Below are positions 12,277 through 55,893 of a stretch of DNA of 64,000 nucleotides, piece after piece. The notes beneath the pieces are model-generated. The model made no database searches. It was not told the DNA's origin and saw nothing but the letters and a program-made list of their open reading frames with translations. This stretch comes from Naegleria gruberi. Taxonomy: Eukaryota. Numbering within the stretch: position 1 is the stretch's first letter; the number at the start of each line of letters is the position of its first letter. Where the stretch lies: the NCBI GenBank assembly GCA_000004985.1, contig GG738928.1; one strand, given 5' to 3'. Made by a program: the position numbers and the translations under genes.

Positions 12277-14373
12277 ATGCAACAACTCGATGATATCGAA
12301 CCTGGTCCTGTCCACAACGTGTCCGACTTGATCCAATTCATCTCCAACTGTGATCAAATCATTCACCACCACCCGAAGCCACTTTATCACTCCTACCAAC
12401 ATTTCGATGGTGATGATGAAGAATTTAGGTGTGATTTTTTATTGATTGGTTCCCGTGCATTGAATGATCATTGGAAAAAGGCAAATAATTTATCATCATC
12501 ATCGGAAGAAGAAGAACCATCAAGATGGTCATGGACACAGAAGGTTATGAAGAAATGGTCCGATGAGAGATTTAATAGAAAATCCGCCGATTGGGATTTA
12601 ATTTGTCTGAACAGGGATGCACTTGTGAATTTGTTAAAATCGAAGGAATTTAAAGAAATTTCTCTAAATTATGCCCATCATGTCCATTTGAAAAAGAAGA
12701 ATATTTCAAATAGATATGAAAGCTCTGATTTTTATGATTGGGTTCTTGGTGGTGGACAGGCAAGGAGATGGATTGAATTTTCTATTCGATTGGAACAATT
12801 TGATGGTGAAATTATTGAAATTGAGTATTGTACAGATAGATATCACTTGTTGAAATATTTGGAAATGAGGGAAGTGTCTCGATTGGATATTCTTCCTTCA
12901 TCACTGATTGACTCTTTTTCATGTGAAATAGCTCCATTACAATTATTGGAAATTATCAAGAAATCACATTTACAATTCAATATTGATGACGATAATTGGA
13001 CGAAACACATTCTCGATATAGAGTTAATTCATCTCATTCTACCAACATCAGAGCAATATCATGAAAAATCACTTCGCAATTCAATTTATGATTTGGCAGG
13101 GCTGGTGCATTATGATCGTCTCACGAAACGAATTGTGAAATATTTGCACGATGAGGGAGATTCTGATTTTGCTTCCAATTTCAATATGTTCATGTTTTCC
13201 AGTACTAAGGATGATATCTATGATGTGGTTAGTCCACTCAATGAGGAAATGTTGTATAGTGCATTTGGAGTTTCGTCCATCTCAATGAAACCCTATCATA
13301 TACAGAATAATTTGAACTCTTTAAGGTTTATTTCACAACAAGTTGCGGCCAATTTACTTTCATCAGTTGTGCATGCAATAGATTCGAATGAATTGGAGAA
13401 ATTAGTTTTCAAATCAATGAAGAATGCTATAGAACAAAATATTGATACTTTTCTGTTTGGGATCATGAGGGATAATTTTATGAAATTGTCTGAAATGGTT
13501 TTTGACATGCTGAATCAACCACTAATTTTCAAGAAATTATTCGAAACAAAAGCTGAAATGAACCAATTCAGATTTAAGAATGCTCCAATTGACTTTGAAA
13601 ATGTGAAGGAAATTTCAAATAAGGAAGGTGCCACTCTCTCACATCATTATCTTCCAATTGAAATTGTCATGACAATTGCATCATATATACCAAAGGCAAT
13701 TGATTTAACAAATTTAATGAGATTAGACAAGAGTTGGAATAATGTATTTGAATCTAATGACGTTTGGAAGTATCTTTGCTATTGTAGATATCCAAAACCA
13801 GCTCACTACTCTCTAGAAAATGATTCTTTCCAAGTAGATGATTGGAAATATTATGTTCTTTCCAGATCCATGTTTGAAAGAGTTCAGTTTCCAACTATTA
13901 AGGGATTGGACTGTCTTTTGAATGCTTTCAGAGTAAAGTTTATTGACAAATCAACAATATTCAAGCAATTTGTCAATGATTTCTTTACTAACACTTACAT
14001 AGCCACCAAGACATTGAATGATGACAAGATGAATGAATATAACACCATGAAGGCCACCTTAATAACATACTGGCCTTGTCAGTCTCCTCTCAAATATGAT
14101 ATAGAAATAGTTTTGGATTTAGCTGAATACAGAAGTGGGGATAGTAAAGGTGGAAGTAGAAGTACAGTGAGTGGAAAGTTGCACAACTCTGAACACTTTT
14201 CAAATCCTTTAAGACTTGTCAAATTCAATAAGGCACAAAATTTCATTGGAAAGTACTATCTCCAAAACATGAACCCCGATCAATATGCATCTCTTTTTAC
14301 TACCTTATTGGTTCTTGGATTGGGAGATAATGAATTCATTAGAACAGTGTTCGGCTATGGGTGGTCCAAATAA
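12277..14373 (+). CDS. Hypothetical 698-aa protein with an internal F-box-like motif
   Basis: LPIEIVMTIASYIPKAIDLTNLMRLDKSWNNVFESNDVWKYLCY resembles an F-box. The rest is unassigned. Confidence 0.45.
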   Translation: MQQLDDIEPGPVHNVSDLIQFISNCDQIIHHHPKPLYHSYQHFDGDDEEFRCDFLLIGSRALNDHWKKANNLSSSSEEEEPSRWSWTQKVMKKWSDERFNRKSADWDLICLNRDALVNLLKSKEFKEISLNYAHHVHLKKKNISNRYESSDFYDWVLGGGQARRWIEFSIRLEQFDGEIIEIEYCTDRYHLLKYLEMREVSRLDILPSSLIDSFSCEIAPLQLLEIIKKSHLQFNIDDDNWTKHILDIELIHLILPTSEQYHEKSLRNSIYDLAGLVHYDRLTKRIVKYLHDEGDSDFASNFNMFMFSSTKDDIYDVVSPLNEEMLYSAFGVSSISMKPYHIQNNLNSLRFISQQVAANLLSSVVHAIDSNELEKLVFKSMKNAIEQNIDTFLFGIMRDNFMKLSEMVFDMLNQPLIFKKLFETKAEMNQFRFKNAPIDFENVKEISNKEGATLSHHYLPIEIVMTIASYIPKAIDLTNLMRLDKSWNNVFESNDVWKYLCYCRYPKPAHYSLENDSFQVDDWKYYVLSRSMFERVQFPTIKGLDCLLNAFRVKFIDKSTIFKQFVNDFFTNTYIATKTLNDDKMNEYNTMKATLITYWPCQSPLKYDIEIVLDLAEYRSGDSKGGSRSTVSGKLHNSEHFSNPLRLVKFNKAQNFIGKYYLQNMNPDQYASLFTTLLVLGLGDNEFIRTVFGYGWSK

Positions 14374-14387
14374 TTGGTGTTTAATCA

Positions 14388-14883
14388 TTGTTCGAATGCT
14401 TTCTGCTCTACTTTTGGAATTGGTTTGGTAGGATCTGTGGTGATGGTGGTCTGGCAACAGATGCCAAACTCTATCAACCAACTGGAATTGCTTTCAATTC
14501 AGATGGTGAGCTATTCATTTCTGATAACAATTCCACAAAATTCTGGTCTTTAACAATGTTCCTGTTCAACTCTATCAACCAACTGGAATTGCTTTCAATT
14601 CAACCAAATTATTCAATCCTTCAATTGTAAGGGAATTATCAATAGCAATGTTGGTGTTTGTTCTGGAAGAGGTCAATGCTCAGCACCTGACACTTGTAAA
14701 TGTTCTGGAAATGCCTATGGACCTAATTGTGAGCTTGTTCCTGCCACTTCAACATTCAATGCAGTTCCAACACCTTCTCATTCTGCCAGATTGAATCAAG
14801 GAATGTCAATTAGAGGAGATTCACTCTTGTGTTTGCTTACTTGTTATCTCGCATTAATTTGTGAATTGCAAATAAACTACTGA
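14388..14883 (+). pseudogene. Degenerate fragment or pseudogene encoding an NHL repeat plus one tenascin-type EGF module and a hydrophobic C-tail; paralogous to the N-terminus of the receptor at 41350..46187
   Basis: Frame A: GDGGLATDAKLYQPTGIAFNSDGELFISDNNSTKF (NHL-repeat-like). A 31-bp segment ctatcaaccaactggaattgctttcaattca occurs twice (14473 and 14568) and shifts the frame. A different frame then gives NCKGIINSNVGVCSGRGQCSAPDTCKCSGNAYGPNCELVPATSTFNAVPTPSHSARLNQGMSIRGDSLLCLLTCYLALICELQINY*. No clean splice joins the frames. Confidence 0.4.
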
Positions 14884-30475: not shown

Positions 30476-33192
30476 ATGGAGAGTCAAAACCCTTCTTCCA
30501 CATCTTCATCCACTTCTTCATCCTATCGAATAATCAAGGAATTAGGTAAAGGAGCCTCGGGACTTGTTGTTTTAGCTTTAAACCCAACAACGGAAGAACA
30601 AGTTGCCATCAAGCAAATTCTCTGTAAAGATGAGTATGATTTTAATATTGCCATGAAAGTATGTTTTCCATCATTTATACGATATCAATATCACAATATT
30701 AACTTTCGAATATAATAATTTAAATTTAAATTCCCATTAAAAAATTATAAATCAATTGTTTGGAACTTGAAATAGGAAGCTTGGCCATTGAGAAAGTTAG
30801 ATCATGAAAGTTTGTGTTCCATCAAGGATATTTACTTTGAAAAGATTGATTTCCATGGGATGGAATGTTACAATGTTAATTTAGTGATGGAATATTACAA
30901 AAATGGAGATTTTAGTGTTTTCCTAAAGAGGAGATGTACGAAAGAGAAACAATTGCTGAGTACGAGTGAGATTTTGGAATTTATGAGGCAGATTGCTGAG
31001 GGAATTGATTATTTGCATGAGAGAAATTTAATGCATAGGTAAGGAAATTAGAATAGTATTTTTGATTATATTCGAAATTTAGAGATTTGAAACCTCAAAA
31101 TATTTTTGTAACAGATGAAAATTCATTGAAAATTGGAGATTTTGGACTCATGAAGNNNNNNNNNNNNNNNNNNNNNNNNNNNNNNNNNNNNNNNNNNNNN
31201 NNNNNNNNNNNNNNNNNNNNNNNNNNNNNNNNNNNNNNNNNNNNNNNNNNNNNNNNNNNNNNCAAGTTGATAGTGGGAATGTTGGAGGTAGATCCGAAGA
31301 AACGACCAACATCAAAAGAGCTTGTACAAATGATTCGAAATATGATTGAAGGAAAGTCACTGGGCTGGGAAGAAAGTAGTGGAAATGAGGATTCTTCCAC
31401 TTTAAGAAAAAGGAGAGTTGCCATCACGGTATCAAAAACAGCACTCACACCCATTCAGAAATTATTTTACAGTTCAGGTGTGAGTAAAATAAGAATGGAT
31501 CCAATCATGTATGAGGATTTTGATGGAAGTGAAACTAATTTATCTGCTTTTTGCATTCATCAGGATTTGTTCCAGTTGGAAACAAGTTCAACAATTCCAA
31601 AATTTGATAATGATACGGAATTGTCATGGATTAATTCGTACCATCCACAATATTTGAATACCATTAGCTCCATGTCACTCAATCAATTATTTCTCATACT
31701 GGCCTCTCCAATGGTTCATTTTCTACCTCTATTTCCTCAATCCGTGCAAAATAGGAAGGAAAGGTTTATAGAGACAATCCTTTTCACCTATCCAATCTTT
31801 ACAACCCCACAAGTATTGTTAAAGAAGTGCTTTGAGACGCTTTCGAATATTCCACTCCAATTTTTAGAATTTCCAATCATGTATGAGGATATTGATGCAG
31901 AATGCGAAGATATTTGGAAAAATGATTATGGATTCCAAATCAATGAGAAATATACATACTGGAGATATTGCAATTCATTATATGAGTACAAGATATTTTC
32001 AATTCTGGAGTTTATAATTAAGGTAAGGCATTTAAAAATTCAAAACATCACCATCAATTTTATCTTTAAATAGTGGATTAAATTCAGAATTGATGATTGG
32101 AATTCAGCAATGTTTGATTTCCTTCATCATATAACAAAAGAATGTTTTGAATTGAAAGGATTCAAATCACTGACAGATTCTTGCATCTCACTTATTGATC
32201 TTGCTCAACAATACCAAAAAGATAGCGAAACGGAATTTGAAATCAATAGGATTTTTGTGGAAATAATAGACTCTTTCAGATTGGAACAAGTTCAAAATGA
32301 AAATGAAGAATATCACTCAGAGCTTAGAGACAAGAGATTGGAAACACCAGTTGACTTGATGAACGATCACAGGAAATTTGCTGCTCCAAAACCAATAATT
32401 CCTATGAGCATATTCAACGACAATTTTAGTTGGTATGAATTAGATAAGATTGAAATTGCAAGGCAATTATCCCTCCGTGACTATGATTACTTTAAAGAAA
32501 TTGATCCCAATGAATATTTTGAATGGATCAGACATGATAACAATCATAGTGGAAGAAGTGCTTGTAAAGCTATTATAGAAATGAAAATGATTGGCAGTTT
32601 GACAATCTCCATGCTCGTGTTTTCAATTCTCAGTCAAGTAAATATCAAGGAGAGAAAAGAACTTCTTTGTAAGGTTATTGATTTGAGCTTGGAATTATTC
32701 AATTTGAACAACTTTTTTGGAGTGGATTATGTGTTGCAAGCTCTACAGCATTCATCTGTGAAGAGATTGGAGCACACTTGGAAAGAAATTGATAGGAAAA
32801 AGATTCAACAATATGAAAAGCTGTGCTATGATATGGAACACGATTATAGGAAAATTACAATACAGCTCGCAAGAAATAATGCAATCCTCATTCCAGTGTT
32901 TATGGAACATTTCAAGGATATTCGATCTGTGGATGAAGCGTTCGAGAATGTCATTCAGGACGAGCAGGGAAATCAACTCATTCATTGGAAGAAAGTATCA
33001 TTCCTCTATTCAACCATTATTGAACCACTCTCATACAAATGTTATCCACCCTTACTCTTTCAAAAAGTTTTTCAAATCCAACAAATTCTTAAACGAGAAT
33101 ACATCCAAAACTTTAACTTTTCCTTTGAATTATTCATGAAAGATAGTTATGCAAGAGAAGGTTCTTCAACTCCAAGAAAGGATATTTTATAA
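30476..33192 (+). CDS. Ser/Thr protein kinase fused to RasGEF-N and RasGEF (CDC25-homology) domains (GefX-like); 4 or more exons, join(30476..30658, 30776..31038, 31083..32022, 32074..33192). Kinase subdomains VIII-X are lost in an assembly gap.
   Basis: Gly-loop IIKELGKGASGLVVLALN, VAIK, HRDLKPQN split across the intron at 31038/31083, DFGLMK, then 107 N, then KLIVGMLEVDPKKRPTSKEL (subdomain XI). The downstream RasGEF catalytic motif is IARQLSLRDYDYFKEIDPNEYFEW. Donors GTATGT, GTAAGG, GTAAGG. Confidence 0.7.
31156..31262. other. Assembly gap (107 N) inside the kinase-RasGEF gene
   Basis: Run of n. Confidence 0.95.
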
Positions 33193-36969: not shown

Positions 36970-39828
36970 TCAATCTTCATTAATTCCAAATTGAAAGTCT
37001 TTTGAGGAACTATCTTTTGGTAGTGTGTCGAANNNNNNNNNNNNNNNNNNNNNNNNNNNNNNNNNNNNNNNNNNNNNNNNNNTTGAATATCTGAATAGGT
37101 TTGATAAAAATGTAGTATCACATGGACAACCACTGAGATTCAACTCATCCAGTGTCTGGAAGTACATGTACATAATATTAGAAAAAATTTTAGGAAATTC
37201 AATATTTGAAAGATCCAATGTTTTCAAACATGCAAATTCCTGTAAAAATGTTCTAAACGAATCACTGTAAATTGGATTGATATCTGTACTCATATCACCT
37301 GTTATATTGTTCAATTTGACATTCTCAATGGAAGGGGAATAACTCAATGAATGAGCAATTGAAAAAAGAGCAGGTGGTGACTTGTTTCCAGTGAATTTGA
37401 ATGTCTTCAGATTCTTCTTAGCTAGTAAGCTATCTCCAATTCTTTGTGTCCCTCTTTCTCCAATATCACAATGAGAAAGATCTAAATAGGTTAGATTAGG
37501 GCAGTTTTTCAATTTTTTCAAAAAATCGGCAAGATATGAGACACCGTTATCCCCAATCTTGTTGTTGCTAAAGTCTAATATTTTCAATGATGGAAAGTTA
37601 ATATAGAATGAAGAGAGATCTGATCCTGTAATCTTTGAATCATGAAATATCAAGCTCTCTATTAATGCTCTTCTAGAATAATCACTCTTAATAGAATAAA
37701 AGAATGTCTCAAAGTCTGCTCCTTTATCCTTTTCCTGATACTCGATATTCCAATGTTTGAGAATTATTGTACTAATTGGAAGGGATGATAATATTTTCGT
37801 CAAAACATCTTGGCAACCATTGAACCAACAAGTCTCCAAACATTTGCATTTAGAATATCTGCTAATCATTCCAGAAAGGAGAATGAAATTATTTCTTTCA
37901 GCCATTTCACGAAGAGTTCTGCTCATCGACTTTTGTAAATATAATTGCATCCATGCGTCTTTCATCTCCTTTAAATAGTAAGGAAGTTTTGAAATTCTCC
38001 ATTTTGAATTGCAAGCAATTTTCCATTCTTGTTCTGATGTAAGTTTTGGCAAATCTTCTAGAACTATGTGTTTTCTAAAATTTGTTGGAGGTTTTCCATG
38101 GTAGCCTTTTTGTAAACTACTCTGAATGCAGGATTTGAGTAGTTCAATAACACTATCATGAGTTTCAAATACATGGAGAGATGACATTTCATTCAGTAAC
38201 TTGAAGAAGGTTTTAAAGTCATTCATCTTTTCAATTTGGTTCAATTTTTCTATGAACGAATCTATGGATTGATAAGGCAATATTCCACAATTTTCATTCA
38301 TAAATTTAGAAATACTTTCAATAGAGTTAAAATCGGAAAAGATCTGGATAAAGTAAATGTGTAATGTGAGTTCTTTCAACCTCTTTCTGATACTTTTGAA
38401 AGAATAGGACACTCTGTCGTCATCAGTTACTTCAGCACATTGAAAATCTGCAATTTCCTTGTAGCTCTTCAAAATATTCTTAACATATCTTGTCAAGAAT
38501 TCTCTAACATAGATATCATACAAATCTTTCCAATCAAATTTTGAAAATGGAATTAGCATTACAAAGTTTAACAAATCTCCAACTTTTTCTTTTGATCTTT
38601 CTTCACTTCTAATAAAGGAATCAATAGAGCTATTAATCAATTCACTAATCTCTGGAATTTCCTTAATCGCCTCGATCATCAATCTGAAAAATCTCAAGCA
38701 AGCCATAAATGCATTGGTGGTCTTTTCTCTCTGATCAACCATTTGAAGCAAACAATTAGACATCAATCGAGGAAGAATTTCAATAACTTGTTCTGGTGAA
38801 AAATCTATCTTTTTCGAATGGGAACTGGACAAATTAGCTAATGAAGATTTGGTAACGTGAAGAACCTTCTTGATATGAATTTCATCATTTGTTTCTGTAA
38901 GGATTGGTATCCAGTGTGTAAATGAAGTTTTCTCTCTTGACATTCCTCTCACATTATAATTCATGAACGCTCTCAATGAAAGAATATCCAGAGAGCAATA
39001 TATAGAACATATTTCCAATGATTTTGCGTTTCTCTTTTTACAGTTAATTCCATAGCCAACAAGATCACTTGTTTTGGTAAAGAAGCAAACTGAATCTGAG
39101 TTGGCTAACACTTTCTCAACTTTACAATTCATTCTTTTGAAACCATCATCTTCCTCTCTAGATACAAATGGAGGAGAAGGTAAATGATTAGAATGGCCAA
39201 CTTTTCTATTAACATATGCTTTGGCATGTGACATTGACCATTCCTGAGCTGACAAGTATTCTTCCTTTTTTTCCTCAAAAGTCTTTGGATCCTGAATATT
39301 TGACAATACTCTAGTCACATCTGCTCCATCATATAAAAACGTTTGCAACTGCATCAAGATTGAATGAACAGAATAAATTGGTTTCCACTCCTCAAGAAAA
39401 TCCAAACAAATCCTATCAGAATCGACCACATTAGGATGTTCCATCCTCGTACACAATCGAATAGTGGGCGCCTCCATTGGATAATTCTCACTAAACTTGA
39501 TCACTGCATGAAAAACCACACCATCATACATGGTATCTGAATTTCCTCGAATATTTACGTGCCACATCATGAAATCCCTCTCATCATCCACCTGAAAATT
39601 CATCTCCCGATAAATATTCATTATTTTCAAATTATCGAGAGCCTTCTTCTTCTTGATCGGAGCTGGACATGCACTCACATGACTCAGTGGATTTTCTTGA
39701 ATGTATTTAAATTCGGAATATAATCTTTTCAAGGCTAAAATTGGAGAAGTTTTACAATGTTTGTAACTATTCGGATCTGAATTTGCTTTCGAACGTGCAT
39801 TGGGCTTGATCTTTTGGTGTTGAGACAT
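36970..39828 (-). CDS. Ubiquitin-conjugating enzyme (UBC/E2) domain fused to a roughly 600-aa linker and a C-terminal RNI-type leucine-rich-repeat domain; an assembly gap lies near the C-terminus
   Basis: N-terminal UBC fold: LKRLYSEFKYIQENP...FMMWHVNIRGNSDTMYDGVVFHAVIKFSENYPMEAPTIRLCTRMEHPNVVDSDRICLDFLEEWKPIYSVHSILMQLQTFL, carrying the HPN motif and the catalytic Cys. C-terminal RNI-like LRRs: LKILDFSNNKIGDNGVSYLADFLKKLKNCPNLTYLDLSHCDIGERG...LDLSNIEF. 50 N at 37033-37082. Confidence 0.65.
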   Translation of the reverse strand: MSQHQKIKPNARSKANSDPNSYKHCKTSPILALKRLYSEFKYIQENPLSHVSACPAPIKKKKALDNLKIMNIYREMNFQVDDERDFMMWHVNIRGNSDTMYDGVVFHAVIKFSENYPMEAPTIRLCTRMEHPNVVDSDRICLDFLEEWKPIYSVHSILMQLQTFLYDGADVTRVLSNIQDPKTFEEKKEEYLSAQEWSMSHAKAYVNRKVGHSNHLPSPPFVSREEDDGFKRMNCKVEKVLANSDSVCFFTKTSDLVGYGINCKKRNAKSLEICSIYCSLDILSLRAFMNYNVRGMSREKTSFTHWIPILTETNDEIHIKKVLHVTKSSLANLSSSHSKKIDFSPEQVIEILPRLMSNCLLQMVDQREKTTNAFMACLRFFRLMIEAIKEIPEISELINSSIDSFIRSEERSKEKVGDLLNFVMLIPFSKFDWKDLYDIYVREFLTRYVKNILKSYKEIADFQCAEVTDDDRVSYSFKSIRKRLKELTLHIYFIQIFSDFNSIESISKFMNENCGILPYQSIDSFIEKLNQIEKMNDFKTFFKLLNEMSSLHVFETHDSVIELLKSCIQSSLQKGYHGKPPTNFRKHIVLEDLPKLTSEQEWKIACNSKWRISKLPYYLKEMKDAWMQLYLQKSMSRTLREMAERNNFILLSGMISRYSKCKCLETCWFNGCQDVLTKILSSLPISTIILKHWNIEYQEKDKGADFETFFYSIKSDYSRRALIESLIFHDSKITGSDLSSFYINFPSLKILDFSNNKIGDNGVSYLADFLKKLKNCPNLTYLDLSHCDIGERGTQRIGDSLLAKKNLKTFKFTGNKSPPALFSIAHSLSYSPSIENVKLNNITGDMSTDINPIYSDSFRTFLQEFACLKTLDLSNIEFPKIFSNIMYMYFQTLDELNLSGCPCDTTFLSNLFRYSXXXXXXXXXXXXXXXXXFDTLPKDSSSKDFQFGINED
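37033..37082. other. Assembly gap (50 N) inside the E2-LRR gene
   Basis: Run of n. Confidence 0.95.
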
Positions 39829-41349: not shown

Positions 41350-44300
41350 TTAAATCAATTTCGAATCATTCAACAAATTTTCTCTGGTTTTACCAGAATT
41401 TTCATAAAAAACAAACTCATCTGTTGTAGTAAATCTGGAAAAGGTATCATTCAAGTTGATAATAATCTGATCTTGTAGTGAGCTGATTGATTGTTGCAAT
41501 TTTTCATGGAATGCTTCTGGTATTTCCTTTTCATTCTTTGATTTCATTTCTTGATTGTTCTTGGCAGAGTTGACCAATTCACTAAGTGATTTTCTCATTT
41601 GTTTGAATTCGTTTCTAGTTTCGGATGGAATGTTAACTTCCTTAATGGAGCCACTTTCAATATAATTGGTAAATAATTCTTCAATCAATGAATTCACAGA
41701 GTCAATTCTGTCATTTGCTTTGATTAACTCTTGGAGTTGTTTCAGTTCCAAATATAAATGCAAGTTTTCTAATGAATATTCCTTTTTACAGAATGATTCG
41801 AATAGTTTCAGACCTTCTCTATTCGATAGTAATTGTTCCAATTCATCCTTTTCTTCATTACTCGATTGGTTTCTAAAATTCTTTTGTTTGATGAAATGAA
41901 CTAATCTCACAATAAGTGCAAATCCTCCAAATACCAACAAGTAACTAAACAAGTACAATATTTCAAATAGCAATGAAATTGAATCGTTCACTCTTGAATT
42001 TACATCACCTCTCTTGTAACTCAAACCTGACAATCCAATAATTTGTGAAATTACCAAAAATGTAAAGCAAACAATAAATAAAATCATTTCCACTCTAAAG
42101 TATAATGGAGTATCGAGTTGAATGAACCAATCATAAGCTCTCTTGATTGGAACTTTTGCCATTTTCTTGGCAGTTTCCTTATCAAACTTTTGTAAAGCTT
42201 CCTTGTTAAACGAAAGTGAACTATTTGATAAATTACTTGTTGATTTTTCATTACTATCCACAAGCATTTCAGATTCATTTCTAGAATTCAAAAGTGACAT
42301 GATCACATCTAACAAAATCAATGCACATATAAGAAATCCCAATGATAAAATCATAATTGTAAACGAAATTGAAACAATGTAAGAATATTCGATTCCTGTA
42401 ATGACACTCGTTCTCACAAGAATTACCCACAACGTCCAATACATTAGGTTCACGGTCATAAAGATTCCCATGATGGAAATCATTGCTCTTGTGGAGAGGA
42501 AAATTCTAATCACTCTCAAAATTTTGTCTCCCTTTTGGTACAATTGACTAGTTCTATCATTTTGGTTCAATGAGAATTTAATGGATAATCTATGATAGAA
42601 ATATTTGAGAATGTGAAATCTTGATGTCTGATACAAGTATGAAAACATTGCTGTCAAAGTCAAAGTGTTTACAATAATTGTAATAACATTCGAAACAATA
42701 TTCGATGCCAAATTACCATTTTCCAATTGAATCACCGTCGACTCTGTCAATCCCTCACTCTTCAATGATAATATCAACCCATTTCTAGTAGTATCCAACA
42801 AAATACTCCTCTGAACTATCAGAAATAGTCCACTTTCCACCACCAATGCAAACATTCCAATAAACGGAGTTACAAATCGACTCGCCAATGGTTGAGATTT
42901 TCGCATCACAATCAAGGCAACGAGAATTGAACTCGACAAGATGAAAAATAAAACACCAAATGAAATTTGTGCAATGTACAATTCGGATAATTGTTCGGCA
43001 GCCCTTAATGAATCAGTTGCGGTGTTATTAAGGGAGTTTTCGATAAAGGCAGCGAAGAGTGTGGTGTGCGTACATTTACAAATTAAATCTCCGTTTGATT
43101 GTAAAGTGGAAAGCGAGCAGCCGCTGGAATCCCATTGTAAAGTTGTTTCATTCCAGAATTTACAAGTGATTTGAGATGAATTGAGAGAATTGATTGTTTG
43201 ATTCAATATTGTAAAGTTAATTGAAATTGGTTGAGTCAATTCTGAAAGTGGTAATGTTTTACCTCCTAAATAAAGAGTGAAATCTTTAGAGTTGGTCAAT
43301 TGAGTTTGATTTGAAGTAAATAGAGGATTAGTATAGGTTATGAGTGATAATCCAACTTCCTTATTGTAGCCATCGTATTTTGTTAGAATGTAATCCGAAT
43401 CTAAACTAATGTCGGAGAATTTTTCTAATTTAGTGCTGTTAGAATTCTTAATAAATGTTGAAACTGTTACATTAATCAAATCTGATGAATAAACTGTGGA
43501 AATAATAGATTCGGATAATAATTTGACCGATTGCTGCAATAATAGAACAGATGTCAATTGAGTACAAGTATTCGAAACATTTGAGAAACCAAAAGAAAGT
43601 AAATTACTTGCACTTGTCAAGGTTGTTTGTAAATCAGAATCTGAAATTCTTTGCTTTGTAACGTAGCCAAGAGTTTCCTTTTCTTTTTTGTAAATTTCAT
43701 TAACTTGATTCAAATAATTTCCTAATTTGTCATTAATTGCTGTAGCAACCTCATTGGAAGAAGCTGATAAAGTAATTTGTTTCAGATTTTCCAAAGCAGT
43801 GGACGGATTGGAAATGTCAATTGTCATCTTATTGACAGACTCTACAAGTACTGAACTAGTTACTTCCTTTCTCAATTTTAAACTTGTATCATATGGAAAT
43901 ACAGTTGCAATACTACCCATTCTTGCTTTCAAAACTTCTGAAGAATCGTCCAAATTTGCACTAATCGAAACTGAACTAATCGATTGAGAATATTCAGTCC
44001 CCAACGCATCCAAACAAATTACAAACAATTCCAAACTTTGACTTGTAGCCAAACTTGTTTCATTCAAATAGGGAAGATACACAGAATCTCTTCCACTTGT
44101 CAAAAATTCTGAAATTCTAATCATTGAATTCTTAAATTTAAATCCAAAAGCAAATTTGAGAGGAGAAAGAAACAATCGACTCGCATTCGAATCTGTAAAA
44201 TTCCAAGCACCTACAACTTCCTCAATAATAAAACTTGTTTTCAGTGCAACACCTGACAATGGTTGAATATTAACAATTGCCATTGGATTTCGAATTGGTG

Positions 44301-46187
44301 GTGCGACGAGAATTACTTGTTGTGAAATGGCGATGATTTGATCCTTAATTGGCTTAATAAGGAGTGTGAAGGTGAGATTTCCAGAGGATTGGATGGTTGG
44401 TTGGATTTTGATGGAAATGATGGGATTGAAGGTCAATGTGAATAAGTTGGCGTTGTTTTTTGGTTTCGTCAAGATTCCAATAACATTTTCATCTGCTGAA
44501 ATAACTTCAGAACCAAACATGAATGAATATTTCAATGAAATGGTACAATTTGCAGTAGCACACTCATCCCTTGTTAATTTCAAATCTGAACTAGTTCTCA
44601 ATTCAACGCTCACAATATTGAAATCAACATTGTTTTTCACACCATTCACAAGTACTTGTGGAATTCCAATAGCATTCAGTGATCTTTCCACTAAAAGTGA
44701 ACAATCTATACCTAAATATCCTCCAGTACAAGTACAAAAGTCAGGTTGTAGACAATTGCCATTTCCAGAACAAACATTCGGTGAATTAGCCGAAACTCCA
44801 AAACAAATTGGAATGAAACAATTAGGTCCAGTATATCCAGGTGAACAAGTACAATTATTTGAAGAAGCACAAATACCATTTCCTGAACAAACTCTATTAT
44901 CATTTGCAGCAATTCCAAAACAACCAATCGAGCCACAATTATTTCCATAAAAACCTGGTTGACATTGACACTTGTTCATTTCAATGCATTCACCCCTTCC
45001 TGAGCAAACACTGCTACTGTTAGTACTCTCAATTCCAAAACACCAATTTGTAACACACATTGTTTTGAACTCATTCAAATAATAACCACTTTCACATGAT
45101 GGAGTTAGTGATCTAATTCTCTTTTTCAAAAATTCTGAAATATAAATTACACCACTTGTCTCATTAAATACTAAACCTCTTGCATCACTCACTGAACTAT
45201 CCAGAGCATCAGTGTTTTCATATGAAGTTGTGCTATTTCCAGCAATCATTGTAAGAGTTCCATTCTTGTCAATTCTGAAAATTCTTCCCTTATATGTTTC
45301 TGTTACAAAGACAGTTTCGTCCTTGGTAACGAATAAAGCACCACCTCCAATTGGGGAACCAGTGAATGCTAGTGTTGAAATATATCCAGTTTCGTTTATC
45401 ACTCTAACACCTTTCGTATCTGATAGGAAAATCTTTCCATTCCTAACAAAAATATCAAAAGGAGACTGAAGAATAGCACTAGTAGCTAGAACACCCTCTC
45501 CAGAATACGAAGAATCCAAATCACTTCCTGCTATTAATGAAATTATTCCATTCTTGACTAATCTAACTCTCGACTTGTCTATCAGGTAAAATTCATTCTC
45601 TGAAATTGCAAAGATTGAATTTGGACCTTTCAGAGCACTAAAAGCAGATCCATTTTCAGTGAAGGAAGACAAGGAGAAATCAGAATAGTTTCCAGCAACT
45701 GTGGAGACGAAACTATTCGGCCAATCACGAAGAGAAAGTTTTCTGACAATTCTATGTATTCTAATGATTAAAGATAATGATGAAATTGTTATATTGTGAT
45801 ATTGTGTGAAAATGTCATGTTATTAGCTTACCTGTCAACGTAAAAGAGGGTGTCATTGAAAATACTCGAGTCAGCCACAGTTGACATACAAATAGTGTTC
45901 TGATTACCATCAGGAGTGTATATTGAAGTGTTGTTTCCAATCTTGTTAGGAGAAAAACTTTCACTTTCCAATGAAAAGATTCGAATAGTACGGTTTAAAC
46001 CATCAGAAACGATTAGTTCGTTGTTGTATAAGGAAATTCCATACATTCCAATATCTGGTGTAGAAATTGGACCAATAGTCTTGATAATGTATTTAACACT
46101 AGCTTGTTTTTGTTCTTGTCCATCAACAGCCACAAACAGTAACAACACAATTGACAACAACAACCATGTATGACAGTTGACTTTCAT
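41350..46187 (-). CDS. Adhesion-GPCR-like receptor: signal peptide, NHL repeats, 3 tenascin-type EGF modules, large ectodomain, GPS motif, 7TM, C-terminal RGS domain; 2 exons, join(46187..45832, 45760..41350), about 1590 aa
   Basis: Exon 1: MKVNCHTWLLLSIVLLLFVAVDG (signal peptide) plus NHL-like repeats. Donor GTAAGC at 45831, acceptor TAG at 45761, phase 2. Exon 2: NHL repeats (GSPIGGGALFVTKDETVFVTETYKGRIFRI), EGF modules (CSGRGECIEMNKCQCQPGFYGNNC; CSGNGICASSNNCTCSPGYTGPNC; CSGNGNCLQPDFCTCTGGYLGIDC), GPS motif (CKFWNETTLQWDSSGCSLSTLQSNGDLICKCTHTTLFAAF), seven hydrophobic helices, then the RGS domain (LKLFESFCKKEYSLENLHLYLELKQL...FTNYIESGSIKEVNIP...). Confidence 0.75.
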
Positions 46188-54414: not shown

Positions 54415-55893
54415 TTATATAGCCTCAATTAAATGATAATTCTTCTTTCCTAATCTCAATACAGCAATTGATCCATTACCTGCCACAAGATCAGCTTCTG
54501 TCATGACATATTTTGGATCTATTTGTCTCTTGTAATTAATGTAAAAACCTCCACTCTTGATCAATTTACCCAATTCAGATTTGGATGGTCCAAGCTTGAG
54601 AGCTAAAGCAATATCTATAATTGGCTTAGATAAAAGATCTTCCTTTGGTACTTGTCCACCAACAGAATCCTTCATTAGTGATGTAATATCTTTCTTTGAT
54701 AAGGTCTTTAAAATTTCAATTGCTTCCTCACTGCTAGCTCCAAATAATAAATTTGTACATTTTTGTACCTTTTCCAATTGTTCCTTTCCGTGAATTTGTG
54801 TTGTTAATTCTTCAGCAAGTCTTTGTTGAGCAATTCTCTTTTCTGGTTGCTGATTGTGTTCTTGTAAGATTTGGTCAATATCTTCCAAGCTAACAAATGT
54901 TAACATTTTCAATAATTTCTCCACATCAGCATCTTGAACTCTGAGGAAATATTGATAAAAATCAAAGACAGAAGTCATTTCAGGATTGAGCCAGACAGCA
55001 TTACCCATAGATTTACCAAATTTAACTCCATCAGCAGTTGTGAGTAAAGGAATTGTCATACCACTGCATACTGATTGACAACTTTCTGGCATGGCTGTTT
55101 GCTTTTTCTTTATGAATTCCAATCCACTTGTAATATTTCCCCATTGATCAGATCCTCCAATTTGAAGTCTTACGTTATTTGAGTTCAATAAATGGAAAAA
55201 ATCATAACTTTGGAAAAGTGAGTAGGAAAATTCAGTAAAAGTCATACCACCATTATCAGCATCAGCATTTTCAACTCTAGATTTAACACTGTCCAATCTT
55301 AACATGTTAGCAATTTGGAAATATTTTCCAACATTTCTCAATAAATCAATCATTTTCATTTCTCCCAACCAATCAGCATTATTGACAACTGTGACATTGT
55401 TCTTAGAGGAGAAGAAAGAATTCATTTCTCTCTTCAATCCTTCAATATTATTATTAATTGTTGATTCATCCAAGAGAGGTCTCTCTGTTTTTCTGCCACT
55501 TGGATCACCAATTCTACCAGTTGCACCACCAACAAGACAATAAATATGAACATTCTTTGGATTAAAAGCCAATTGGAATCTCTTCAAAGTTTGAAGAACA
55601 AGCAAATTGCCAACATGAAGCCCCGAAGCTGTAGGATCAAAACCAGCATAAATACCAATAGACTTGGCCAATTCACTACCACTGTTCATTTCTTGCATTA
55701 AATTATCAAATCCCGAAGTAGCATCATTATAAATTCCTCTCTTTTTTAAATCGGAAATAAATTCATTATTATTTGATGATGAAGTTTGATTAAATCTCCT
55801 TTGAATATTGTTTCCTCCGATTAAATACTTTCTGTTCTTTAAAAAAAGGCCCGAGTCAACAAGGCTTGTTTGACGAAGAAGGCTTCGTTGCAT
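54415..55893 (-). CDS. Mitochondrial (bacterial-type) tyrosyl-tRNA synthetase
   Basis: N-terminal presequence, then GFDPTASGLHVGNLLVLQTLKRFQ (HIGH-type motif HVGN), KFGKSMGNAVWL (KMSKS-type) and a C-terminal S4-like domain. Confidence 0.8.
   Translation of the reverse strand: MQRSLLRQTSLVDSGLFLKNRKYLIGGNNIQRRFNQTSSSNNNEFISDLKKRGIYNDATSGFDNLMQEMNSGSELAKSIGIYAGFDPTASGLHVGNLLVLQTLKRFQLAFNPKNVHIYCLVGGATGRIGDPSGRKTERPLLDESTINNNIEGLKREMNSFFSSKNNVTVVNNADWLGEMKMIDLLRNVGKYFQIANMLRLDSVKSRVENADADNGGMTFTEFSYSLFQSYDFFHLLNSNNVRLQIGGSDQWGNITSGLEFIKKKQTAMPESCQSVCSGMTIPLLTTADGVKFGKSMGNAVWLNPEMTSVFDFYQYFLRVQDADVEKLLKMLTFVSLEDIDQILQEHNQQPEKRIAQQRLAEELTTQIHGKEQLEKVQKCTNLLFGASSEEAIEILKTLSKKDITSLMKDSVGGQVPKEDLLSKPIIDIALALKLGPSKSELGKLIKSGGFYINYKRQIDPKYVMTEADLVAGNGSIAVLRLGKKNYHLIEAI

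What the first reader, a model, noticed from the sequence alone, without database searches (positions are those of the whole stretch)
41350..46187. One receptor combines NHL repeats, EGF modules, a GPS motif, 7TM and a C-terminal RGS domain
A single two-exon gene of about 1590 codons encodes, in order: a signal peptide, NHL beta-propeller repeats, three tenascin-type EGF modules, a long ectodomain, a GPS/GAIN-type Cys motif (CKCTHTTLFAAF, a variant of the canonical C-x-C-x-HL|T), seven transmembrane helices, and an RGS domain (LKLFESFCKKEYSLENLHLYLELKQL...).

Coupling an adhesion-GPCR-like architecture to its own GTPase-activating RGS module is reminiscent of plant AtRGS1 (7TM-RGS), but the NHL/EGF/GPS ectodomain here is a different family. 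I am not aware that this exact combination has been described. It would be a receptor that may switch off its own G-alpha partner. A degenerate paralogous fragment with the same NHL+EGF N-terminus lies at 14388-14883.
Basis: partly seen in the sequence, partly recalled or inferred. Interest (0 to 1): 0.78.

Follow-up and report, generated by a model that had tools for sequence, protein, structure and literature searches.

The report
Naegleria adhesion-type 7TM receptor with RGS
This is an intact, already annotated but unstudied Naegleria gruberi gene for a cell-surface receptor that joins an adhesion-type ectodomain (NHL, EGF, GAIN/GPS) to a GPCR-fold 7TM domain and a cytosolic RGS domain, an architecture already described for the "7TM RGS" family of the sister species N. 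fowleri.

Summary
A two-exon minus-strand gene (46187..45832, 45760..41350) encodes 1588 aa. In order: signal peptide, NHL repeats, three EGF modules, two beta-sandwich domains, a full GAIN domain with a GPS motif, seven TM helices with a GPCR fold, and an R4-like RGS box.

The novelty claim does not hold.
- The window is Naegleria gruberi, a heterolobosean and not an amoebozoan.
- The spliced protein is identical to XP_002669365.1 (NAEGRDRAFT_75738, "predicted protein").
- Bosch et al. 2022 (PMC9283941) described 28 N. fowleri "7TM RGS" proteins. Several carry GPS motifs, EGF repeats and lectin domains, and some of their RGS domains had GAP activity on Naegleria G-alpha subunits.
- This protein is homologous across GPS, 7TM and RGS to Nf 7TM RGS1 and to likely orthologues of RGS3 and RGS4.

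What this work adds:
- The GAIN domain is a true homologue of adhesion-GPCR GAIN domains.
- Catalytic His and Thr are invariant in 81 of 98 relatives with the homologous 7TM (HT|T in 78).
- The 7TM matches no Pfam 7TM family and is not class-B2-specific by fold.

Most likely it is a membrane-anchored G-alpha GAP controlled by its ectodomain, as in AtRGS1. It is a new member of a known kind, of modest interest.

The parts
46119..46187 (-). Start codon and signal peptide (aa 1-23, MKVNCHTWLLLSIVLLLFVAVDG)
   Evidence: Hydropathy peak of 2.22 over aa 1-25. It is followed by a Cys-rich region with many N-glycosylation sequons (26 NxS/T sequons and 29 Cys in aa 24-1040).
45761..45831 (-). Single intron, 71 nt, GTAAGC...TTAG
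   Evidence: Splicing restores the frame and an NHL-like 'YVDRIHRIVRKL' motif. The spliced product equals XP_002669365.1 exactly.
45082..46118 (-). NHL-repeat region (aa 24-345; spans the intron), presumably a beta-propeller
   Evidence: phmmer against PDB sequences hits the NHL region of teneurin-like proteins 9pt5_A (E 2.7e-21, 4 stretches) and 9ifo_A (E 2.3e-19). Pfam TEN_NHL gives 26.5 bits, just below the cutoff of 27.1. The blade number and the propeller fold were not modelled.
44701..45057 (-). Three teneurin/tenascin-type EGF modules (aa 354-472)
   Evidence: Pfam EGF_2 E 9.9e-14 (3 stretches) and EGF_Teneurin E 7e-13 (3 stretches). The repeated pattern CFG-x7-9-VCSG-x-G-x-C-x5-C-x-C-x2-G-[YF]-x-G-x2-C is seen in the sequence.
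43957..44667 (-). Stalk of two beta-sandwich domains (aa about 484-720); no family assigned
43042..43941 (-). GAIN domain (aa about 726-1025): helical subdomain A plus beta subdomain B, containing the GPS motif (aa 984-1022)
43060..43068 (-). Putative autoproteolysis triad H1017-T1018|T1019 inside CKCTHTTLFAAF, followed by a Stachel-like strand TLFAAFIE
   Evidence: C1013, C1015, H1017, T1019 and F1021 are invariant in every family alignment made; T1018 is invariant in two of them and nearly invariant in the third. The motif CxCxH[TA]TxF is present in 81 of 98 relatives with the homologous 7TM (78 HTT, 3 HAT). Cleavage itself was not tested.
41893..42981 (-). Seven-transmembrane domain (aa 1046-1408) with a long intracellular loop 3 (about 60 aa)
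41377..41859 (-). RGS box (aa about 1420-1580) with an insert of about 30 aa before the last helices; the stop codon is at 41350-41352

Best explanation
The gene (NAEGRDRAFT_75738) is one paralogue of the Naegleria "7TM RGS" receptor family.

Shown here: it encodes one polypeptide. The predicted ectodomain is built from adhesion-type modules: NHL repeats, three EGF modules, two beta-sandwich domains and a GAIN domain with a GPS. This is joined to a GPCR-fold 7TM bundle and a predicted cytosolic R4-like RGS box that keeps the residues RGS4 uses to contact G-alpha.

[quoted passage not shown] There it speeds GTP hydrolysis on one or more of the many Naegleria G-alpha subunits, some of which self-activate in N. 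fowleri. Binding of a surface-bound or matrix ligand, or mechanical load, on the NHL/EGF/GAIN ectodomain changes the receptor's conformation, clustering or internalisation. That changes how much GAP activity reaches G-alpha, as glucose does for Arabidopsis AtRGS1.

The invariant His and Thr of the GPS, the conserved aromatic residue and Gly-Cys motif upstream, and a conserved Stachel-like strand make autoproteolysis into non-covalently bound N- and C-terminal fragments plausible. This is unproven.
For: - Single ORF and exact match to the annotated model.
- Topology: signal peptide plus seven TM segments. The sequon- and Cys-rich part lies N-terminal to TM1 and the RGS box lies after TM7.
- The architecture recurs. 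Of 240 fetched relatives, 38 have GAIN+7TM+RGS and 49 have 7TM+RGS. A full scan of 1.84 billion representatives gives 286 hits at E<=1e-3 and 55 at E<=1e-30. NHL+GPS+RGS is also found in N. gruberi paralogues P0098, P0101 and P0001 and in the unnamed Logan-assembly protein P0049.
- The protein is homologous over GPS-7TM-RGS to N. fowleri P0002. Table S1 primers of Bosch et al. identify P0002 as Nf 7TM RGS1. It is also homologous to the N. lovaniensis protein that carries the Nf 7TM RGS3 primer-encoded peptides.
- Bosch et al. 2022 showed GAP activity and direct G-alpha binding for RGS domains of Nf 7TM RGS2 and RGS4. Evidence for RGS3 was equivocal: GAP on Nf G-alpha5, but no detectable binding to G-alpha3 (PMC9283941).
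- The RGS residues that align with RGS4 S85, E87, N88, N128, D163 and R167 are conserved. The RGS4 numbering is from established knowledge of the RGS4-Gi-alpha1 structure.
- The Phe that orients the GPS His, and the Gly-Cys motif, are named as cleavage determinants in PMC13062082. Both are present: CKFW at aa 985-988, whose aromatic position aligns with CVFW of ADGRF1, and SGC.
Against: - No experiment exists for this protein. GAP activity, its G-alpha partner, cleavage, localisation and ligand are all unknown.
- The residue before the scissile bond is Thr, not the usual Leu. [quoted passage not shown]
- The only N. fowleri family member firmly identified among my hits, Nf 7TM RGS1, gave uninterpretable GAP assays in Bosch et al..
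- RGS identity to the relatives of the tested proteins is only 29-39%.
- AlphaFold confidence is moderate (mean pLDDT 66 and 73) and rests on shallow alignments of 10-14 sequences.
- That the ectodomain regulates the GAP is inferred purely by analogy.
Confidence: 0.72

Rival explanations
1. It is a true G-protein-activating receptor with a built-in off switch. The 7TM domain acts as an exchange factor for a slow-exchanging G-alpha, perhaps driven by the GAIN tethered agonist. The attached RGS box shortens or spatially sharpens the signal from that same G-alpha.
Against: No sequence similarity to any characterised G-protein-activating 7TM family. The characterised precedent for 7TM-RGS fusions, AtRGS1, works as a regulated GAP and not as an exchange factor (PMC9283941; PMC8584482). 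No test of exchange-factor activity is available.
Confidence: 0.2
2. It is mainly an adhesion or scaffold molecule. The RGS box has lost GAP function and only docks partners, as in GRK or axin RGS-homology domains. The 7TM is only a membrane anchor.
Against: The closest sequence and structure matches are catalytic R4-type RGS proteins: RGS3, 16, 4, 8 and 1. The G-alpha-contact positions, including the Asn that aligns with RGS4 N128, are conserved across the family. The 7TM carries strongly conserved cytosol-facing motifs: RKxQPxxSR, QxxR[FY], DxPLYFRxE and FGG. That argues for more than an anchor.
Confidence: 0.06
3. It is a gene-model or assembly artefact: two neighbouring genes, an adhesion protein and a 7TM-RGS protein, read as one.
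For: None found. The window contains assembly gaps elsewhere (31156-31262 and 37033-37082).
Against: Exon 2 is one uninterrupted ORF of 1440 codons running from the NHL region through GAIN and 7TM to RGS. There is no N run inside the gene. The same colinear architecture is found in dozens of relatives in three Naegleria species and in environmental assemblies.
Confidence: 0.02

Closest known systems
Naegleria fowleri 7TM RGS proteins (Nf 7TM RGS1-4 of 28; Bosch et al. 2022, J Biol Chem, PMC9283941)
   Same: Same overall design: a large ectodomain with EGF repeats and a GPS motif, seven TM helices and a C-terminal RGS box. Direct homology over GPS-7TM-RGS to P0002, which equals Nf 7TM RGS1 by primer match: 7TM 40% identical, RGS 29%, GAIN 33%. 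Also homologous to the N. lovaniensis counterpart of Nf 7TM RGS3 (RGS box 39% identical).
   Different: A different species and paralogue. This protein has an N-terminal NHL region where the described N. fowleri examples have lectin domains (P0002 and P0003 start with a B-lectin-type region). Nothing has been measured for this protein.
Arabidopsis AtRGS1 and other 7TM-RGS proteins of plants, Trichomonas and other protists
   Same: 7TM followed by a cytosolic RGS box. The presumed logic is a membrane-tethered GAP for self-activating G-alpha that is relieved by an extracellular cue (PMC9283941; PMC3971589; PMC8584482).
   Different: AtRGS1 has essentially no ectodomain. This protein has about 1020 extracellular residues, including a GAIN domain. 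Homology between the two 7TM domains was not tested. Short relatives of the Naegleria-type 7TM-RGS core (430-500 aa, no ectodomain) exist in environmental assemblies.
Metazoan adhesion GPCRs (class B2: latrophilins, BAI, CELSR, ADGRG/F/E)
   Same: Adhesion modules, then a homologous GAIN domain with GPS placed about 27 residues before TM1 (T1019 to L1046). Catalytic His and Thr are conserved and a Stachel-like T-x-F-[SA]-[TA]-F-[ILV]-[EQ] strand follows.
GPR158/GPR179 with RGS7-G-beta5 (class C orphan receptors)
   Different: There the RGS protein is a separate recruited subunit, and here it is fused. No sequence similarity. The structural match is a generic GPCR fold.
Teneurins and teneurin-like proteins
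   Same: The N-terminal modules (NHL repeats and EGF of the teneurin type) give the best sequence matches.
   Different: Teneurins are single-pass proteins with YD-shell and toxin-like domains. They have no GAIN, 7TM or RGS.

Membership tests
Naegleria 7TM RGS family (Bosch et al. 2022) | Seven transmembrane helices followed by a C-terminal RGS domain in one polypeptide | tested here: met
   Continuous ORF. Seven hydropathy segments. 7-helix GPCR-fold bundle. Pfam RGS after TM7.
Naegleria 7TM RGS family (Bosch et al. 2022) | Sequence homology to the published N. fowleri members | tested here: met
   P0002 (N. fowleri) contains both primer-encoded peptides of Nf 7TM RGS1: NKDMSI at its aa 2452 and the C-terminus NVVYLC. 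It matches the query over positions 2-601 at E 1.9e-97. BLASTP: 7TM 40%, RGS 29%, GAIN 33% identity.
Naegleria 7TM RGS family (Bosch et al. 2022) | GAP activity of the RGS domain on Naegleria G-alpha subunits | not testable with these tools
   Only residue conservation and fold could be checked.
Adhesion GPCR (class B2) | GAIN domain with GPS immediately N-terminal to the 7TM | tested here: met
Adhesion GPCR (class B2) | 7TM domain of the secretin/adhesion type (Pfam 7tm_2) | tested here: not met
Adhesion GPCR (class B2) | H-X-S/T catalytic motif and autoproteolysis at the GPS | tested here: inconclusive
   H1017-T1018-T1019 fits H-X-S/T. His and the +1 Thr are invariant in 81 of 98 relatives with the homologous 7TM. 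The orienting aromatic residue and the Gly-Cys motif are present. Actual cleavage cannot be tested here, and the motif alone is not sufficient (PMC13062082).
Adhesion GPCR (class B2) | G-protein activation by the tethered agonist | not testable with these tools
   Only conservation of the Stachel-like strand T-x-F-[SA]-[TA]-F-[ILV]-[EQ] was seen. This may simply reflect its structural role in the GAIN fold.
RGS box, R4-like (catalytic RGS) | Nine-helix RGS fold | tested here: met
RGS box, R4-like (catalytic RGS) | G-alpha switch-contact residues (RGS4 S85, E87, N88, N128, D163, R167) | tested here: met
   S1448, E1450, N1451 (EYSLENL), N1495 (KEVN), D1557 and R1561 (NDTFSRF). They are invariant or at least 90% conserved in 14 relatives. 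The RGS4 numbering is from published knowledge, not from a tool.
AtRGS1-type plant 7TM-RGS | 7TM plus C-terminal RGS architecture | tested here: met
AtRGS1-type plant 7TM-RGS | Homology of the 7TM domain to AtRGS1; ligand-induced endocytosis that de-represses a self-activating G-alpha | not tested
   No AtRGS1 sequence or structure was available in the tools used. The function is not testable here.

The most novel reading that the evidence does not exclude
The Naegleria GAIN-7TM-RGS proteins may be an "inverted" adhesion receptor. A cleavage-competent GAIN domain and its tethered Stachel-like strand would gate a fused GTPase-activating domain rather than a nucleotide exchange activity. Pulling off the N-terminal fragment would then switch G-alpha inactivation on or off. 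The GAIN domain would be paired with a 7TM lineage that is not class B2. That would imply that GAIN-7TM mechanosensing arose, or was shuffled, outside the adhesion-GPCR family and deep in eukaryote history.
Probability: 0.2. Interest if true: 0.7.

Novelty: new member of a known kind. Interest (0 to 1): 0.3.

Why it matters
The result matters mostly as a correction. The striking architecture is real, but it is a lineage-specific expansion already reported in Naegleria fowleri, and the gene is already in GenBank as a "predicted protein".

Three points remain of some value.
- The GPS motif noted in the literature belongs to a complete GAIN domain homologous to those of animal adhesion GPCRs. Its catalytic His and Thr are kept in 81 of 98 relatives with the homologous 7TM.
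- That GAIN domain is attached to a 7TM that no known GPCR family model recognises.
- N. gruberi is non-pathogenic and easy to culture. It offers several paralogues in which to test whether GAIN cleavage or ligand binding controls a fused RGS GAP. That bears on how G-protein signalling was regulated before receptor-driven exchange became the rule.

Tried and rejected
- look-ups of neighbouring genes gave nothing, or only a 4.8-kb metagenome contig. The annotation context of the locus could therefore not be read directly.
- a second homologue search with aa 474-1588 returned no hits, although obvious homologues exist. I treat this as a failure of the word-index prefilter, not as evidence.
- The first homologue search did not return the identical GenBank protein. 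Its 90% cluster is represented by a 119-aa fragment. I briefly thought the gene was unannotated and dropped that idea after the exact look-up.
- I first took P0102 and P0100 to be the N. fowleri proteins Nf 7TM RGS3 and RGS4 because of primer-peptide matches. The cluster look-up shows they are N. lovaniensis and N. gruberi proteins, so they are at best orthologues. Only P0002 is N. fowleri itself.
- Searches for a 7TM family assignment found nothing: Pfam on the protein and on 21 relatives, and a profile against PDB sequences.
- No paper in the library mentions NAEGRDRAFT_75738, D2W2W7 or XP_002669365.
- Fritz-Laylin 2010, Anantharaman 2011 and Bradford 2013 are not held. What they say about Naegleria 7TM-RGS proteins could only be taken second-hand from papers that cite them.
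- Amoebozoan origin is rejected.
- A gene fusion artefact is rejected.
Full report
**Gene structure.** The region holds a minus-strand gene. A 119-codon ORF (46187..45828) starts with a hydrophobic signal-like peptide. It is followed by a GTAAGC...TTAG intron of 71 nt, and then by a 1440-codon ORF that runs without interruption to a stop at 41350. Joining 46187..45832 to 45760..41350 gives 4767 nt, or 1588 codons plus the stop. This spliced protein is identical over its full length to GenBank EFC36621.1 / XP_002669365.1 / UniProt D2W2W7, "predicted protein" NAEGRDRAFT_75738 of Naegleria gruberi. Six other ORFs of the window are also exact N. gruberi NEG-M proteins from one 160,583-bp scaffold.

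**Domain calls.** Pfam supports three EGF modules (EGF_2 E 9.9e-14; EGF_Teneurin E 7e-13). It supports a GPS motif at aa 984-1022 (35.4 bits, cutoff 22.5) and an RGS domain at aa 1426-1519 (40.3 bits, cutoff 23.9). The teneurin-type NHL model scores just under its cutoff (26.5 against 27.1). The NHL call is confirmed by a search of solved structures. The N-terminal 331 residues match the NHL region of two teneurin-like proteins at E 2.7e-21 and 2.3e-19, in four repeated stretches. The RGS box matches R4-type RGS proteins by sequence (RGS3 E 1.4e-7, then RGS16, RGS10, RGS2, RGS4).

**Topology.** Hydropathy analysis finds the N-terminal signal segment and exactly seven hydrophobic segments between aa 1046 and 1408. 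There is a long loop of about 60 residues between segments 5 and 6. The part before TM1 carries 26 N-glycosylation sequons and 29 cysteines. This fits an extracellular N-terminus and a cytosolic RGS box.

**GAIN homology by sequence.** A profile of the GAIN region from 18 relatives finds 17 PDB sequences at E below 0.01. All of them are adhesion-GPCR chains containing a GAIN domain. ADGRL3 aligns over 210 profile positions (E 8.5e-8). The GPS motif is therefore part of a true GAIN domain.

**The family.**
- A full HMMER scan of 1.84 billion representatives with GPS+7TM+RGS gives 286 hits at E<=1e-3, 106 at E<=1e-10 and 55 at E<=1e-30. Most of the stronger hits among the 150 listed (roughly the first 80) are aligned across all or most of GPS, 7TM and RGS.
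- Among the 240 proteins fetched, 38 contain GAIN, 7TM and RGS, and 49 contain 7TM and RGS without a detectable GAIN.
- Named members come from N. gruberi, N. fowleri and N. lovaniensis. The closest relative is another N. gruberi gene, NAEGRDRAFT_47020, at 61% identity.
- NHL+GPS+RGS also occurs in N. gruberi paralogues (P0098, P0101, P0001) and in one unnamed Logan-assembly protein (P0049).
- Short forms of 430-500 aa with the same 7TM-RGS core and no ectodomain occur in environmental assemblies.
- The 7TM carries family-specific conserved motifs: RKxQPxxSR after TM1, QxxR[FY] at the end of TM3, DxPLYFRxE before TM6 and FGG in TM7.

**The GPS site.** The motif C-x-C-x-H-[TA]-T-x-F occurs in 81 of 98 relatives with the homologous 7TM, as HTT in 78 and HAT in 3. 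The consensus is [IV]-x-C-x-C-x-H-T-T-x-F-[SA]-[TA]-F-[ILV]-[EQ]. This fits the canonical H-X-S/T catalytic motif. PMC13062082 shows that this motif is necessary but not sufficient. Cleavage also depends on a conserved Phe that orients the His and on a Gly-Cys motif. Both are present here: CKFW at aa 985-988, whose aromatic position aligns with CVFW of ADGRF1, and SGC. Cleavage between T1018 and T1019 is plausible but untested.

**The RGS box.** Residues at the positions that RGS4 uses to contact G-alpha switch regions are present: S1448, E1450, N1451, N1495, D1557 and R1561. They are invariant or at least 90% conserved in the family. The correspondence to RGS4 S85, E87, N88, N128, D163 and R167 rests on published knowledge of the RGS4-Gi-alpha1 complex.

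**What is already known.** Bosch et al. 2022 (PMC9283941) report 28 N. fowleri proteins with seven TM helices and a C-terminal RGS domain. [quoted passage not shown] Isolated RGS domains of Nf 7TM RGS2 and RGS4 accelerated GTP hydrolysis on, and bound, specific Nf G-alpha subunits, including self-activating ones. Results for RGS3 were partly equivocal, and RGS1 was excluded for assay interference. De Mendoza et al. 2014 state that many bikonts have 7TM-RGS architectures and that metazoans do not. A review cites 44 G-alpha genes in N. gruberi.

**Link to the published proteins.** Using the primer sequences in Table S1 of Bosch et al., P0002 (N. fowleri) carries both primer-encoded peptides of Nf 7TM RGS1. 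The N. lovaniensis protein P0102 carries those of Nf 7TM RGS3. The N. gruberi protein P0100 ends in VVYGI like Nf 7TM RGS4. The protein studied here aligns with all three over GAIN, 7TM and RGS: 29-33%, 39-40% and 29-39% identity respectively. Only the NHL module is unmentioned in that paper. No paper in the library names this particular gene.

**Mechanism.** What is shown is the anatomy: an adhesion-type ectodomain, a GAIN domain, a GPCR-fold membrane domain and an RGS box that looks catalytically competent, all in one chain. What is inferred, from AtRGS1 and the N. fowleri biochemistry, is the mode of action. The receptor would keep a GAP next to G-alpha at the membrane, and ectodomain engagement would change how much GAP activity reaches G-alpha. 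I put this at about 0.7. The main rival is a true activating receptor with a built-in off switch, at about 0.2. A non-catalytic scaffold and a gene-fusion artefact are unlikely, for the reasons given under the rival explanations.

**The fragment at 14.4 kb.** This region contains one NHL-like repeat (ICGDGGLATDAKLYQPTGIAFNSDGELFISD). After a frameshift and a short duplication there is one EGF module followed by a hydrophobic tail. By tblastn the EGF part scores E 2e-4 and the NHL part E 0.13 against this protein. It shares the domain types, but there is no evidence that it is a specific paralogue of this gene.

**Verdict.** The added value is threefold: a complete, conserved and probably cleavage-competent GAIN domain; a 7TM that is not of the adhesion-GPCR type by any test available here; and a broad family with variable ectodomains.

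Noticed in passing
window 14439-14766 (+), between the genes at 12277-14373 and 15190 onward: A short remnant with one NHL-like repeat, a local duplication and frameshift, then one EGF module and a hydrophobic tail. It looks like a decayed or mis-assembled small relative of the NHL/EGF surface proteins. tblastn against the receptor gives E 2e-4 for the EGF part and E 0.13 for the NHL part.
   Followed up: partly
protein collection: cluster of XP_002669365.1: The 1588-aa protein sits in a 90% cluster whose representative is a 119-aa fragment from a 4.1-kb Logan/ENA contig. 119 aa is also the length of the exon-1 ORF read through to the in-frame stop in the intron, but the two sequences were not compared. 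For this reason the homologue search did not return the identical GenBank entry, and the gene looked unannotated at first.
   Followed up: yes
family alignment A3 (7TM of 21 relatives); in this protein aa 1072-1080, 1162-1167, 1335-1343, 1395-1399: Strongly conserved, family-specific motifs on the predicted cytosolic side of the 7TM: RKxQPxxSR after TM1, QxxR[FY] at the end of TM3, DxPLYFRxE before TM6 and FGG in TM7. Their role is unknown. They could form a G-alpha or RGS docking surface.
   Followed up: partly
P0199, P0211, P0213, P0237 (430-500 aa; the three looked up, P0199, P0237 and P0181, are unnamed ENA/JGI assembly proteins): Relatives with the same 7TM-RGS core but almost no ectodomain, resembling AtRGS1 in size. 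Forms of 711-747 aa (P0181, P0190) have a different N-terminal region. The family therefore swaps ectodomains on a constant 7TM-RGS chassis.
   Followed up: partly
window 31156-31262 and 37033-37082: Runs of N (107 and 50 nt), which are assembly gaps inside two ORFs of the scaffold. They explain why the ORF at 36970-39828 was not found by exact look-up.
   Followed up: no
L001 (ENA ERZ929261, contig k127_258943, 4829 bp): A contig from a sample labelled as a metagenome encodes a tyrosyl-tRNA synthetase identical to the window's gene at 54415-55893. N. gruberi or a near-identical strain is therefore present in that sample.
   Followed up: no
P0098 (N. gruberi NAEGRDRAFT_63528): This paralogue has HAT in place of HTT at the GPS, and an NHL region of over 1000 residues with only one EGF module. 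It is a natural variant for testing the role of the residue before the scissile bond.
   Followed up: no
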